Source: a phage. Taken from it: 64,000 bases of DNA. Under the pieces are notes generated by a model. The model was not told the DNA's origin and searched no databases. It saw only the letters and a program-made list of their open reading frames with translations. Shown here piece by piece: positions 36,278 through 46,665 of the stretch (position 1 is its first letter; every line of letters begins with the position of its first letter). Both the position numbers and the translations under genes were made by a program. The stretch is taken from sequence record PX092659.1; one strand, given 5' to 3'.

Positions 36278-37046
36278 ATATTCATAAATTAGGGAACAGC
36301 GAGCCGATTACGCTGAACTTGTCTTAATGTAAGATGCGTCGAGCACTAAGATTCGTTGAATAGAGTCGGTGGGTTAGTTGTAAAACTAGTACACAGGGGG
36401 CGGCAATCCCGGTTAGTGGCTAGAACGTGTAAAATGAGGCGTCTGAAACCTCTCCCCTAAACTCTTCTCTAATTTATAAATAGTGGGGTGTGGAAATCAC
36501 TTATGTAGTAGCACTGCCGTCCTAGTATAATTGGTATTATCAAGCCGTAACTGGTGGAAGATGTAGGTTCGAATCTTACGGTCGGTAAGAACTGGATAAC
36601 TGATGCTTTTAACGTAAAAGCTTCCGAGGTTAGTTGCGCACTGCCTAAACCACGCGGTAGTTGGTTCCAGGCTAACCAACCAGTCTGCTGAATAGTTTTA
36701 TTACGATTTAACTATGTCCAGACTAAAGAAGAACTTTAGAAGGTATTCTAGGATAGTGAAGTTCTTTCTCCATATCGGAGTAGTTTTTCAAGCTATCCAC
36801 AAAGTGGGAAATGCTGACATGAGAGATGTCACTAATGGTGCACAATAGCACAGGTAATTCGCGATAACTCCTGTTGAGTAGCAGCAAAAGGCGGGAAGTC
36901 ATGACCCCAAGCCTAACCGAGTCCTCAATATACCGCAGGACATAACCACTAAGTCACCCTGACTTAAACTGGAAAATAATAGACGTTACTGTATTTTGTC
37001 TTGAAATACTTAATGAGTGAGACTTATGACTCTCCCGGTATCGTCT

Positions 37047-40881: not shown

Positions 40882-41283
40882 ATGGAAAAGGTTGAATTTG
40901 AGTACTTTGGAGTTATTTTAATTGTACACTTAAATGGTACAATAGAAACTAAAGATAGAATAATAACACAACGAAATCAATATGGCGAGTATACTAGAAC
41001 TATAAAAGGAAAGGTACTGTCTCCACGTTGCAATGGTAAATCTGGGTATTTTCAGGTGAAGATTTGCAATAAGGGATTAGGTAAAAATGAGTATGTGCAC
41101 AGACTCGTATGGATGGCTTTCAACGGTGAAATACCGGAAGGCTATGAAATAGAGCACAAAGATGATGATAAGTCTAATAATGCTTTACCTAACCTAGAAT
41201 TATTCACAAGAAAGCAGAATATGGACAAAGTCTTAAATAAGATGACTAGAGATTCTCTAGGTCGTTTTGAAAAACTTAACTAG
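40882..41283 (+). CDS. HNH homing endonuclease (divergent copy) inside tRNA cluster
   Basis: 133 aa; HRLVWMAFNGEIPEGYEIEHKDDDKSNNALPNLELFTRKQN. Confidence 0.6.
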   Translation: MEKVEFEYFGVILIVHLNGTIETKDRIITQRNQYGEYTRTIKGKVLSPRCNGKSGYFQVKICNKGLGKNEYVHRLVWMAFNGEIPEGYEIEHKDDDKSNNALPNLELFTRKQNMDKVLNKMTRDSLGRFEKLN

Positions 41284-41291
41284 GAGACTAT

Positions 41292-41477
41292 ATGTCTAAG
41301 TTTCAAGAACTCAAGCAAGAGCTAGAAGAATGTGCCTGCCCTGAGTGTAGAGGAATTGGTGAAAGTTCTGATGCAGAAGCAGGAGATACTTTTTGCAATA
41401 TCTGGGTTTGCCCAACTTGCAATGGTACAGGTATTAATCCTAACTGCGGTATTTCCCTAGATATTGAGCGAGGATAA
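41292..41477 (+). CDS. hypothetical small Cys-rich protein (two CxxC pairs)
   Basis: 61 aa; CACPECRG ... CPTCNG. Confidence 0.45.
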   Translation: MSKFQELKQELEECACPECRGIGESSDAEAGDTFCNIWVCPTCNGTGINPNCGISLDIERG

Positions 41478-41578: not shown

Positions 41579-41655
41579 GGGGGTGTAATCGAATTGGCAT
41601 AGGTACTGGACTTAAAATTCAGGTTTTGTGGGTTCGAATCCCACCACCCCTACCA
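41579..41655 (+). tRNA. tRNA with TAA anticodon (Leu-type anticodon) but short variable arm
   Basis: Acceptor GGGGGTG/CACCCCT, anticodon stem CTGGA/TTCAG with loop CTTAAAA, 5-nt variable region, T-arm GTGGG-TTCGAAT-CCCAC, A73-CCA. Confidence 0.6.
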
Positions 41656-42600: not shown

Positions 42601-42687
42601 GGGCGTTTATTCCGTAAGTGGTAGCGGAGGGGATTGTAAATCCCTGGTCATTGCGACTCGAGTGGTTCGACTCCATTAACGCCCACC
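42601..42687 (+). tRNA. tRNA-Tyr (anticodon GTA), class II
   Basis: Acceptor GGGCGTT/AACGCCC, anticodon loop TTGTAAA, long variable arm, A73-CCA. Confidence 0.75.
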
Positions 42688-42695
42688 AAATTTAA

Positions 42696-43380: not shown

Positions 43381-43463
43381 GGGTCGTTAGCCAAGCGGTT
43401 TGGCGGCGGATTGTTAATCCGTGTCGAAAGACAACGTAGGTTCGAATCCTACACGGCCCGCCA
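43381..43463 (+). tRNA. class II-shaped tRNA with GTT (Asn-type) anticodon and G73
   Basis: Acceptor GGGTCGT/ACGGCCC, D-stem GCCA/TGGC, anticodon stem GCGGA/TCCGT with loop TTGTTAA, 13-nt variable arm with GTC/GAC stem, T-arm GTAGG-TTCGAAT-CCTAC. Confidence 0.55.
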
Positions 43464-45915: not shown

Positions 45916-45992
45916 GCGTGATTGATGGAATTGGCATACATACCGTCCTTAGAAGTCGGGTTTTGAGGGTTCGAATCCCTTGTCACGCACCA
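45916..45992 (+). tRNA. tRNA with TAG anticodon (Leu-type anticodon) but short variable arm
   Basis: Acceptor GCGTGAT/GTCACGC, anticodon loop CTTAGAA on stem CCGTC/GTCGG (one mismatch), 5-nt variable region, T-arm GAGGG-TTCGAAT-CCCTT, A73. Confidence 0.55.
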
Positions 45993-46575: not shown

Positions 46576-46665
46576 AGAAGATAGGACGTAGTGGTACGTA
46601 ACTGGTCTTGAAAACCAGCCCGCTGTAGCGATACGGTGATGGTTCGACTCCATTATCTTCTGCCA
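46576..46665 (+). tRNA. tRNA-Ser (anticodon TGA), class II
   Basis: Acceptor AGAAGAT/ATCTTCT, anticodon stem CTGGT/ACCAG with loop CTTGAAA, long variable arm, T-arm GATGG-TTCGACT-CCATT, G73-CCA. Confidence 0.75.

What the first reader, a model, noticed from the sequence alone, without database searches (positions are those of the whole stretch)
41579..41655. Short-arm tRNA with Leu-type UAA anticodon
The anticodon loop CTTAAAA gives UAA (decoding UUA), but the variable region is only 5 nt whereas bacterial tRNA-Leu is class II. A73 is present, so LeuRS charging is plausible; the phage may supply a compact decoder for AT-rich Leu codons rare in the host.
Basis: partly seen in the sequence, partly recalled or inferred. 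Interest (0 to 1): 0.4.

Follow-up and report, generated by a model that had tools for sequence, protein, structure and literature searches.

The report
Short-arm leucine tRNA in T5-like phage
This is a real, working-looking leucine tRNA gene of a T5-like phage that lacks the long extra arm bacterial leucine tRNAs normally carry, and it belongs to a large, little-discussed family of such short leucine tRNAs found in the tRNA gene clusters of phages and mobile elements.

Summary
Observation confirmed. Window 41579-41655 (+) is a 77-nt tRNA with anticodon UAA, a 5-nt variable loop (GUUUU), A73 and encoded CCA (ARAGORN; Rfam 57.4 bits). The window is a T5-like phage with 24 tRNA genes. A second short Leu gene (UAG) lies at 45916-45992.

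The gene keeps every element E. coli LeuRS is reported to need: A73, A15-U48, G18G19 in the leuZ register, A20a and the D/T-loop pairs. It lacks only the arm, which is reported to be dispensable.

A scaffold pattern with the anticodon, position 48 and position 73 left free returned 187 distinct well-folded sequences from viral contigs and bacterial assemblies. All have Leu anticodons, A73 and U48, and all stems covary. They sit in dense tRNA arrays where Ser and Tyr keep their long arms.

Phage ORFs use UUA at 25.1/1000 and CUA at 18.6/1000, against 11.1 and 2.6 in an E. coli sample.

Phage OSYSP has only two Leu genes, identical to the window's two. An anticodon-swapped OSYSP tRNA-Leu inserts leucine in recoded E. 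coli (PMC13596443). Which of the two was used is undetermined.

Verdict: an ordinary functional phage tRNA-Leu with an under-described class I architecture. The gene is already annotated in hundreds of records.

The parts
41579..41655 (+). Whole tRNA-Leu(UAA) gene, 77 nt, class I (short variable loop), CCA encoded
   Evidence: ARAGORN; Rfam RF00005 57.4 bits; sequence
41579..41585 (+). Acceptor stem, 5' strand (GGGGGUG); pairs with 41645-41651, starting with a G1.U72 wobble
   Evidence: Sequence; pairs covary in relatives
41588..41604 (+). D arm: 3-bp stem (A10-U25, U11.G24, C12-G23), G13.A22 mismatch, 9-nt loop AAUUGGCAU with A14, A15, G18G19 and A20a in the same register as E. coli leuZ
   Evidence: Alignment A1 with leuZ, T5 and LAh_6 class II Leu; identity elements from PMC9976931
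41606..41622 (+). Anticodon arm: 5-bp stem and loop CUUAAAA
   Evidence: Sequence; ARAGORN
41613..41615 (+). Anticodon UAA (reads UUA and, with the usual U34 modification, UUG); followed by A37 A38
   Evidence: ARAGORN; sequence
41623..41627 (+). Variable loop GUUUU, 5 nt, ending in U48 (partner of A15)
   Evidence: Sequence; U48 invariant in 187/187 family members although unconstrained by the search pattern
41628..41644 (+). T arm: stem GUGGG/CCCAC and loop UUCGAAU (U54, U55, C56, A58 present)
   Evidence: Sequence; Rfam alignment
41645..41651 (+). Acceptor stem, 3' strand (CACCCCU)
   Evidence: Sequence
41652..41652 (+). Discriminator A73, the major Leu determinant for E. coli LeuRS
   Evidence: Sequence; A73 in 187/187 family members, unconstrained; PMC9976931
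41653..41655 (+). Genomically encoded CCA end
   Evidence: Sequence; all 24 window tRNAs encode CCA
45916..45992 (+). Sibling class I tRNA-Leu(UAG), 77 nt: same D loop, V loop GUUUU, T loop and A73, but different stems; anticodon at 45950-45952
   Evidence: ARAGORN; Rfam 47.5 bits; alignments A1 and A2

Best explanation
It is a functional phage tRNA-Leu(UAA). It is transcribed with the surrounding + strand block of small ORFs and tRNAs and cut out by host RNase P and 3' processing, with the CCA already encoded. Host LeuRS then charges it with leucine. LeuRS in E. coli-type bacteria reads A73 and the shape of the D/T-loop corner (A15-U48, G18G19 position, A20a, G18:U55, G19:C56, U54:A58), not the anticodon and not the long arm. 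A Leu tRNA that keeps a class II-style D arm but has only a 5-nt variable loop is therefore still a substrate. On the ribosome it reads UUA (and UUG if U34 is modified as in host tRNA-Leu(UAA)). UUA is the commonest Leu codon in the phage but uncommon in highly expressed host genes. Its sibling Leu(UAG) at 45916-45992 does the same for CUA. The arm was most likely lost because it is dispensable for LeuRS. In the same arrays Ser and Tyr tRNAs, whose synthetases use the arm, keep it. Shown: the gene, its fold, family-wide conservation and covariation, exclusive association with Leu anticodons, the codon-usage match, and leucine insertion by one of the two identical OSYSP scaffolds in E. coli (literature). 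Inferred: charging of this particular scaffold, its modifications, its processing route, and the reason for arm loss.
For: Gene calls: ARAGORN; Rfam 57.4 bits. All 24 window tRNAs encode CCA and carry the discriminator expected under E. coli identity rules (U73 Cys, C73 His, G73 Ser/Gln/Asp/Glu/Asn/Trp, A73 for both Leu). D-arm architecture matches E. coli leuZ and the class II Leu tRNAs of T5 and LAh_6 (leuZ sequence verified). E. coli LeuRS rules come from PMC9976931: A73, A15-U48, G18G19, A20a and D/T pairs are required; the anticodon and long arm are not; variants lacking the arm stay active. Covariation in 9 homologues from 5 phage genera: 97.8% of cells paired, 16/20 pairs with compensatory changes, 0/500 shuffles reach the observed values, slid controls 34-48% paired. 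Scaffold scans with the anticodon free gave 187 distinct well-folded sequences: 100% Leu anticodons (UAG 86, CAA 47, CAG 17, UAA 16, AAG 12, GAG 9), 100% A35, 100% U48, 100% A73, and stems 94-100% paired with 3-6 pair types each. Codon usage: UUA 25.1/1000 and CUA 18.6/1000 in window ORFs against 11.1 and 2.6 in 64 E. coli CDS. Experimental link: an anticodon-swapped tRNA-Leu(CGA) from GenBank MF402939.1 makes E. coli read TCG as leucine (PMC13596443). MF402939.1 is phage OSYSP, whose whole genome has only two Leu genes, both 77 nt and 100% identical to the window's two. The identical gene is annotated tRNA-Leu in many records.
Against: No aminoacylation or expression data exist for this exact scaffold in the text I could read; the OSYSP tRNA used experimentally could be the UAG sibling. 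E. coli LeuRS did not charge the only studied bacterial type I tRNA-Leu, S. coelicolor CAA (PMC6614811), so a short arm is not automatically tolerated. That tRNA is reported with C48, whereas this family has invariant U48. The MFE fold is not a cloverleaf. The acceptor stem begins with a G.U pair and the D stem has only 3 pairs including a U.G. UUA is not a rare codon in average E. coli genes (15.5/1000 in non-ribosomal genes), so codon supply may not be the only selective reason. The scaffold scans were capped at 120 loci each, and the pattern fixes the D and T loops, so the family statistics describe this scaffold, not all phage Leu tRNAs.
Confidence: 0.88

Rival explanations
1. Same functional Leu tRNA, but the short arm is itself adaptive. 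Losing the arm lets the phage tRNA escape a host factor that recognises class II Leu tRNAs (a tRNA-cleaving defence nuclease, toxin or colicin-type enzyme), so Leu decoding continues when host tRNA-Leu is attacked. This is compatible with the best explanation for function and differs only in why the arm is missing.
For: Literature summarised in PMC13596443 and PMC12803027 says phage and array tRNAs are thought to act as anti-defence and to evolve to avoid host tRNA nucleases. Class I and class II Leu(UAG) genes alternate at the same slot after tRNA-Ala in closely related phages (164 versus 54 records), suggesting turnover under selection. The short form is found across many phage groups and in mobile-element arrays.
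Against: No nuclease or toxin that targets tRNA-Leu through its variable arm was identified here or in the papers read. The known evasion examples cited act through the anticodon loop. Simple dispensability explains why only Leu, and not Ser or Tyr, loses the arm. T5 itself does well with a class II Leu(UAG).
Confidence: 0.15
2. It is a decayed or non-functional tRNA gene: a class II Leu gene that suffered deletion of its arm and persists as a pseudogene or as a processing signal in the transcript.
For: T5-like tRNA regions do contain degenerate tRNA-like elements (T5 annotation of tRNA-like stable RNAs; weak Rfam hit at 36516-36587). The MFE fold is not a cloverleaf. T5 itself lacks this gene.
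Against: The sequence is 100% identical in about 290 records. Compensatory changes are maintained in all four stems across genera and across 187 distinct family members. A73, U48, A35, U8, U33, the T loop and CCA are all preserved. The Rfam score is in the middle of the window's bona fide tRNAs. One of the two identical scaffolds works in translation in E. coli.
Confidence: 0.03
3. It is charged by a synthetase other than LeuRS (for example a Phe- or Ile-type tRNA whose anticodon drifted), so the phage recodes or mistranslates UUA/UUG.
For: It has the class I shape of non-Leu tRNAs. A35-A36, A73, A26 and G44-U45 superficially resemble features of tRNA-Phe. E. coli LeuRS failed on another type I Leu tRNA.
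Against: With the anticodon fully free, 155/155 viral scaffold matches and all 187 distinct family members carry one of the six Leu anticodons spanning both Leu codon boxes, and none carries GAA, GAU, CAU or NAC. Only a synthetase blind to the anticodon, i.e. LeuRS, fits that pattern. There is no G3.U70 (Ala) and no long arm (Ser, Tyr). The D loop is Leu-specific within the window. The OSYSP scaffold inserts leucine.
Confidence: 0.02

Closest known systems
E. coli tRNA-Leu(UAA), gene leuZ (class II, 87 nt)
   Same: Anticodon UAA with A37 A38; A73; G1.U72; 3-bp D stem with G13.A22; 9-nt D loop with A14, A15, G18G19 and A20a in the same register; U48; canonical T loop.
   Different: leuZ has a variable arm of about 15 nt where the phage tRNA has 5 nt. 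The stems are unrelated in sequence. No BLAST similarity to any of 5,426 complete E. coli genomes, so this is not a recent host capture.
Phage T5 tRNA-Leu(UAG) (T5t10, 85 nt, class II)
   Same: Same phage family, same tRNA cluster, Leu-type D loop, A73, CCA encoded. It occupies the slot after tRNA-Ala that holds the window's short Leu(UAG).
   Different: It has a variable region of about 13 nt and unrelated stems. T5 has no Leu(UAA) gene in the Ile2-Tyr interval and carries the hegA HNH endonuclease there.
Streptomyces coelicolor type I tRNA-Leu(CAA) (PMC6614811)
   Same: A bacterial-system Leu tRNA with a short 5-nt variable loop that coexists with class II Leu tRNAs and a single LeuRS.
   Different: It is reported as not charged by E. 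coli LeuRS, with A73 not acting as identity element and with C48. The phage family has invariant A73 and U48 and lives in E. coli and Salmonella phages. Whether the two are related was not tested.
Human mitochondrial tRNA-Leu(UUR)
   Same: Class I shape, UAA anticodon, identity resting on A73 and A14 without a long arm (PMC9976931).
   Different: It is a structurally fragile organellar tRNA with a dedicated mitochondrial LeuRS. The phage tRNA has a full canonical D/T-loop corner and GC-rich stems.
Engineered E. coli tRNA-Leu variants lacking the variable arm (Larkin et al. 2002, as summarised in PMC9976931)
   Same: They show that E. coli LeuRS still charges tRNA-Leu without the long arm, provided A73 and the D/T-loop tertiary pairs are intact. 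That is the configuration seen here.
   Different: Laboratory constructs rather than natural genes. I could not read the primary paper.
OSYSP-derived vtRNA-Leu(CGA) used in genetic-firewall E. coli (PMC13596443; Nyerges et al. 2023)
   Same: It derives from one of two OSYSP Leu genes that are 100% identical to the window's two short Leu genes, and it inserts leucine in E. coli.
   Different: The anticodon was changed to CGA. Which of the two scaffolds was used is not stated in the text I could read.
[quoted passage not shown]
   Same: Dense tRNA clusters associated with homing endonucleases and horizontal transfer. The short Leu family sits in such arrays.
   Different: Those papers, in the passages searched, do not mention that the Leu tRNAs in arrays lack the long arm.

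Membership tests
tRNA (Rfam RF00005) | Cloverleaf with conserved U8, A14, G18G19, U33, T loop GTTCRANYC, scored by covariance model above the gathering threshold | tested here: met
   57.4 bits against gathering score 29, full-length model match 1-71; ARAGORN call
tRNA (Rfam RF00005) | Stems maintained by compensatory substitution in homologues | tested here: met
   16/20 pairs compensatory, 97.8% paired, 0/500 shuffles; 94-100% paired across 187 distinct sequences
Bacterial class II tRNA-Leu | Long variable arm (10 or more nt, stem-loop) | tested here: not met
   Variable loop is GUUUU, 5 nt; total length 77 nt against 84-87 nt for leuZ, T5 and LAh_6 class II Leu
Bacterial class II tRNA-Leu | Leu-type D arm: 3-bp stem, G13.A22, 9-nt loop with G18G19 after A14 A15 Y16 Y17, and A20a | tested here: met
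   Column-by-column match with leuZ, T5 Leu and LAh_6 Leu in alignment A1
Substrate of E. coli-type LeuRS (identity set in PMC9976931) | Discriminator A73 | tested here: met
   A at 41652; 187/187 in the family
Substrate of E. coli-type LeuRS (identity set in PMC9976931) | A15-U48 trans-Levitt pair | tested here: met
   A15 at 41593 and U48 at 41627; U48 187/187 although unconstrained. Pair formation itself is inferred.
Substrate of E. coli-type LeuRS (identity set in PMC9976931) | G18G19 and A20a in the D loop; G18:U55, G19:C56, U54:A58, U8:A14 partners present | tested here: met
   All nucleotides present; the tertiary fold is not testable with these tools
Substrate of E. coli-type LeuRS (identity set in PMC9976931) | Actually leucylated by host LeuRS | not testable with these tools
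   Indirect only: one of two identical OSYSP scaffolds inserts Leu in E. coli; exclusive Leu anticodons in the family
Type I (class I) tRNA-Leu, as in animal mitochondria and S. coelicolor CAA | Leu anticodon on a tRNA with a 4-5-nt variable loop | tested here: met
   UAA anticodon and 5-nt loop
Type I (class I) tRNA-Leu, as in animal mitochondria and S. coelicolor CAA | Common descent with, or same recognition mode as, the S. coelicolor or mitochondrial examples | not tested
   S. coelicolor sequence not available in held text; reported differences (C48, A73 not used, not charged by EcLeuRS) argue for a different recognition mode
Phage / mobile-element tRNA array | Member of a dense co-oriented cluster of many tRNA genes, with homing endonuclease genes interspersed | tested here: met
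   24 tRNAs on the + strand between 37090 and 49147; HNH_3 ORF at 40882-41283; family members lie in arrays with a median of 9-12 tRNAs per locus

The most novel reading that the evidence does not exclude
Short-arm (class I) tRNA-Leu is not a curiosity of one phage. It is the prevailing, anciently maintained form of tRNA-Leu in the tRNA arrays of phages and mobile elements across many bacterial phyla. It would be a distinct lineage defined by the D loop AAYUGGCAUA, G13.A22, U48 and A73, and its arm loss would be selected (for example to escape host factors that recognise class II tRNAs) rather than merely tolerated. That would contradict the textbook statement that tRNA-Leu keeps its long arm everywhere except animal mitochondria, and would give a structural marker that separates mobile from cellular Leu tRNAs.
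Probability: 0.2. Interest if true: 0.65.

Novelty: new member of a known kind. Interest (0 to 1): 0.4.

Why it matters
For this window it matters little. The gene is an ordinary phage tRNA that tops up decoding of the phage's favourite Leu codon, and it is already annotated in hundreds of genomes.

The wider point is more useful. Current reviews state that tRNA-Leu carries a long arm in all organisms except animal mitochondria, and a 2019 study presented one Streptomyces type I tRNA-Leu as a rare exception. Here a simple pattern recovers at least 187 distinct short-arm Leu tRNAs from viral contigs and bacterial assemblies, with perfect retention of the E. coli-type LeuRS determinants.

That is a natural experiment confirming that bacterial LeuRS does not need the arm. 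It explains why phage Leu tRNAs were convenient chassis for codon reassignment. It gives annotators a reason not to flag such genes as pseudogenes. It also raises a testable question: does arm loss help mobile tRNAs evade host tRNA-targeting defences?

Tried and rejected
1. Thermodynamic folding of the single sequence gave a non-cloverleaf MFE with z = -1.2. I rejected it as uninformative for tRNAs, given the covariance-model and covariation evidence.

2. Alternative anticodon or alternative fold: ARAGORN and Rfam give one consistent register, so none was found.

3. Pseudogene: rejected on conservation and covariation.

4. Origin as a drifted Phe or Ile tRNA: I considered this because of A35-A36, A73, A26 and G44-U45. 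I rejected it because the scaffold is never found with GAA, GAU, CAU or NAC anticodons.

5. Recent capture from the host: no similarity in 5,426 E. coli genomes.

6. Promoter and terminator scan around the gene: counts were no higher than in shuffles and nothing was specific to the tRNA.

7. Literature: ten full-text searches found no paper describing short-arm Leu tRNAs in phages (one search was an input error). Larkin 2002 (PMC115294), Nyerges 2023 (PMC10151025) and its preprint are not held. The 2026 preprint has no held supplements, so I could not determine which OSYSP scaffold was engineered.

8. Loci L002-L008 were not available to the script machine, so their tRNAs were handled through the alignment tool instead.

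9. No covariance model was built. The fixed-spacing pattern plus Python analysis was sufficient.

Full report
**What is there.** ARAGORN finds 24 tRNA genes on the + strand of the window between 37090 and 49147. One is tRNA-Leu(taa) at exactly 41579-41655. Rfam's tRNA model matches 41579-41652 over its full length at 57.4 bits, against a gathering score of 29.

Read directly, the 77-nt sequence is GGGGGUG UA AUCG AAUUGGCAU A GGU A CUGGA CUUAAAA UUCAG GUUUU GUGGG UUCGAAU CCCAC CACCCCU A CCA. It has:
- a 7-bp acceptor stem that opens with G1.U72;
- a 3-bp D stem plus a G13.A22 mismatch;
- a 9-nt D loop;
- anticodon UAA at 41613-41615, followed by A37 A38;
- a 5-nt variable loop ending in U48;
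- a canonical T arm, A73, and an encoded CCA.

Single-sequence energy folding does not give the cloverleaf. That is common for tRNA and carries little weight against the other evidence.

**Where it comes from.** The surrounding 1.6 kb matches 433 phage records at 80-99% identity. All are T5-like phages (Demerecviridae) of Salmonella, Escherichia and relatives, and most annotate a tRNA-Leu here. The 77-mer itself is at least 99% identical in 293 records. It has no similarity to any of 5,426 complete E. coli genomes.

The gene lies in a co-directional block: an HNH_3 homing endonuclease ORF at 40882-41283 (Pfam 70.4 bits), a 61-aa CxxC zinc-finger ORF, a 29-aa hydrophobic ORF, the tRNA, and then more small ORFs. 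No promoter or terminator signal specific to the tRNA stands out.

**A second short Leu gene, and a contrast with T5.** The window's other Leu gene, Leu(UAG) at 45916-45992, is also 77 nt. It has the same D loop (GAAUUGGCAUA), the same variable loop (GUUUU), the same T loop and A73, but different stems. Among the 24 tRNAs, that D loop occurs only in these two.

T5 itself differs. In the same slot after tRNA-Ala it has an unrelated 85-nt class II Leu(UAG) with a variable region of about 13 nt. It has no Leu(UAA) between Ile2 and Tyr, where it carries the hegA HNH endonuclease instead.

Distribution among sequenced phages:

| Gene | Phage records | Source |
|---|---|---|
| Class I Leu(UAG), window type | 164 | |
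| Class II Leu(UAG), T5 type | 54 | |
| Class I Leu(UAA), this finding | about 341 | |

Some phages combine the class I UAA gene with the class II UAG gene.

**Is it a maintained, folded tRNA?** Homologues occur in other Demerecviridae genera and beyond:
- Vibrio phages JSF12 and PG07;
- Aeromonas phage AhP_Mru1, with three 77-nt Leu genes (UAG, CAA, UAA);
- Obesumbacterium phage Ob_P;
- the unrelated Aeromonas phage LAh_6, where a 77-nt Leu(UAG) sits next to an 84-nt class II Leu(UAA);
- Streptomyces phage Teutsch, with Leu genes of 75 and 76 nt.

On the ungapped alignment of nine of these, 97.8% of cells form standard pairs. Sixteen of 20 pairs show changes on both sides, no shuffle out of 500 reaches the observed values, and sliding the partners drops pairing to 34-48%. 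This rules out a pseudogene.

**Does it look like a LeuRS substrate?** The tRNA identity review (PMC9976931) summarises the E. coli rules. A73 is crucial, while the anticodon and the long arm are not. In vitro selection showed A15-U48, G18G19 and A20a to be essential. G18:U55, G19:C56 and U54:A58 matter. [quoted passage not shown]

All of these nucleotides are present here. The D arm aligns column for column with E. coli leuZ (sequence verified) and with the class II Leu tRNAs of T5 and LAh_6, including G13.A22 and the G18G19 register. The gene is in effect a class II Leu tRNA without its arm.

The discriminators of all other window tRNAs also follow E. coli identity rules, so this phage's tRNAs are tuned to the host synthetases.

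One caution comes from PMC6614811. E. coli LeuRS could not charge the type I tRNA-Leu(CAA) of S. coelicolor. That tRNA is described with C48, and A73 does not act as its identity element, so it lacks what this family keeps.

**Family-wide test.** I scanned public collections for the scaffold: D loop AAYTGGCATA, class I spacing, U33 and T loop GGTTCGANTC. The first pattern left positions 34, 36, 48 and 73 free. A second left the whole anticodon and position 37 free. Each scan hit its 120-locus limit, both in viral contigs and in bacterial and archaeal assemblies.

Of 155 matches in viral loci under the fully relaxed pattern, all have Leu anticodons and A73. Pooling viral and genome loci gives 187 distinct well-folded sequences:

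| Feature (not constrained by the pattern) | Result in 187 sequences |
|---|---|
| Anticodons | UAG 86, CAA 47, CAG 17, UAA 16, AAG 12, GAG 9; none non-Leu |
| A35 | 100% |
| U48 | 100% |
| A73 | 100% |
| G13.A22 | 94% |
| Stem positions | 94-100% paired, 3-6 pair types each |

A scaffold that is free to take any anticodon, yet is found only with anticodons from both Leu boxes, is what one expects of a tRNA charged by an anticodon-blind synthetase, namely LeuRS. This disposes of the idea that it is a drifted Phe, Ile or Val tRNA.

**Context of the family.** Local ARAGORN on the fetched loci shows these genes sit in dense tRNA arrays, with a median of 12 tRNAs per viral locus and 9 per genome locus. 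In those arrays Ser and Tyr tRNAs are almost all 81-97 nt, while Leu is mostly 74-78 nt. Only the class II tRNA whose synthetase is reported not to need the arm has lost it. The sample is biased, because every locus was chosen for containing a short Leu.

Papers on such arrays do not mention the Leu arm in the passages I searched. The only paper in the library that uses the phrase "type I tRNALeu" is the Streptomyces study.

**Codon usage.** In 67 non-overlapping ORFs of the window (15,124 codons, 39% G+C) and 64 annotated E. coli K-12 genes:

| Codon | Phage, per 1000 (% of Leu) | E. coli sample, per 1000 (% of Leu) | E. coli ribosomal/EF genes, per 1000 |
|---|---|---|---|
| UUA | 25.1 (27.6%) | 11.1 (10.7%) | 3.3 |
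| CUA | 18.6 (20.5%) | 2.6 (2.6%) | 0.4 |

UUA and CUA are the two commonest Leu codons in the phage, and they are the cognate codons of the two short tRNAs. The nuance is that CUA, not UUA, is the truly rare host codon.

**Experimental link.** A 2026 preprint (PMC13596443) describes E. coli strains in which a "bacteriophage-derived (GenBank ID MF402939.1) tRNALeu(CGA)" makes TCG codons read as leucine. It builds on Nyerges et al. 2023, which I could not read.

MF402939.1 is Escherichia phage OSYSP, a Tequintavirus. ARAGORN over its whole genome finds only two Leu genes, both 77 nt. They are 100% identical to the window's Leu(UAA) and Leu(UAG). So one of these two short-arm scaffolds is leucylated and used on the ribosome in E. 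coli, whatever its anticodon. Which of the two was used is not stated in the text I could access.

**Mechanism and rivals.** The best-supported account, at about 0.88, is a functional tRNA-Leu(UAA) charged by host LeuRS through A73 and the D/T-loop corner. It decodes UUA, and UUG if U34 is modified as in the host isoacceptor. The A36-A37-A38 motif predicts i6A37-type modification; that rests on general knowledge of MiaA and was not tested here. Arm loss is most simply explained by dispensability.

A variant of this account holds that arm loss is selected, to evade a host factor recognising class II tRNAs. It is possible but has no direct support (about 0.15). A pseudogene (0.03) and charging by a non-Leu synthetase (0.02) are essentially excluded.

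**Novelty.** The gene is already annotated in hundreds of records and, in effect, already used experimentally. Type I tRNA-Leu is a known kind (animal mitochondria, one Streptomyces case), and this is another member. What seems under-appreciated is the size and coherence of the phage and mobile-array family, and how exactly it retains the E. coli-type LeuRS determinants. That sits awkwardly with review statements that tRNA-Leu keeps its long arm outside animal mitochondria. Interest is moderate.

Noticed in passing
window 45916-45992 (+): A second class I tRNA-Leu (anticodon UAG, 77 nt) with the same D, V and T loops and A73 as the finding. T5 has an unrelated 85-nt class II Leu(UAG) in the same slot after tRNA-Ala.
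   Followed up: yes
window 43381-43463 (+): tRNA-Asn(GUU) is 83 nt with a variable region of about 13 nt, GUCGAAAGACAAC (GUC/GAC stem, GAAA loop). That is a long arm on a normally class I tRNA, the mirror image of the short Leu. The same 83-nt gene is in OSYSP (L250 7180-7262), whereas T5's Asn is 78 nt.
   Followed up: no
window 36516-36587 (+): A weak Rfam tRNA match (30.7 bits, gathering 29) that ARAGORN does not call; the anticodon arm looks degenerate. T5 annotates several tRNA-like stable RNAs of unknown function in its tRNA region.
   Followed up: partly
window 40882-41283 (+): An HNH_3 homing endonuclease ORF (Pfam 70.4 bits) lies just upstream of the Leu(UAA) block. T5 has a different HNH gene (hegA) and no Leu(UAA) in the same Ile2-Tyr interval, which suggests endonuclease-linked swapping of tRNA cassettes.
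   Followed up: partly
window 41292-41477 (+): A 61-aa ORF with two CxxC pairs gives a weak DnaJ central-domain hit (16.9 bits, below cut-off). Relatives annotate it variously as 'antitermination protein Q' or 'DnaJ-like chaperone', which looks like unreliable annotation.
   Followed up: partly
window 42601-42688 and 46576-46665 (+): tRNA-Tyr (88 nt) and tRNA-Ser(UGA) (90 nt) are called by ARAGORN but do not appear among the Rfam matches at gathering threshold, although Ser(GCU) does.
   Followed up: no
L003 800-873; L004 4257-4328; L143: tRNAs with UCA anticodons (opal-suppressor-like) occur in Aeromonas phage AhP_Mru1 and Obesumbacterium phage Ob_P, and a CUA-anticodon tRNA occurs in a Phocaeicola MAG tRNA array.
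   Followed up: no
L131, L134, L148, L152, L154 (gammaproteobacterial and betaproteobacterial tRNA arrays): Recurrent tRNA-Ile(UAU) calls of 91-95 nt, far longer than a normal Ile tRNA. These may hold an intron or a long arm.
   Followed up: no
Scaffold family (L010-L280), and window 45953: Most CUN-reading members (UAG, CAG, GAG, AAG) have A37 rather than the G37 (m1G) usual for such Leu tRNAs. Only 30 of 187 have G37.
   Followed up: no
window 41579/41651; family; E. coli leuZ: [quoted passage not shown]
   Followed up: no
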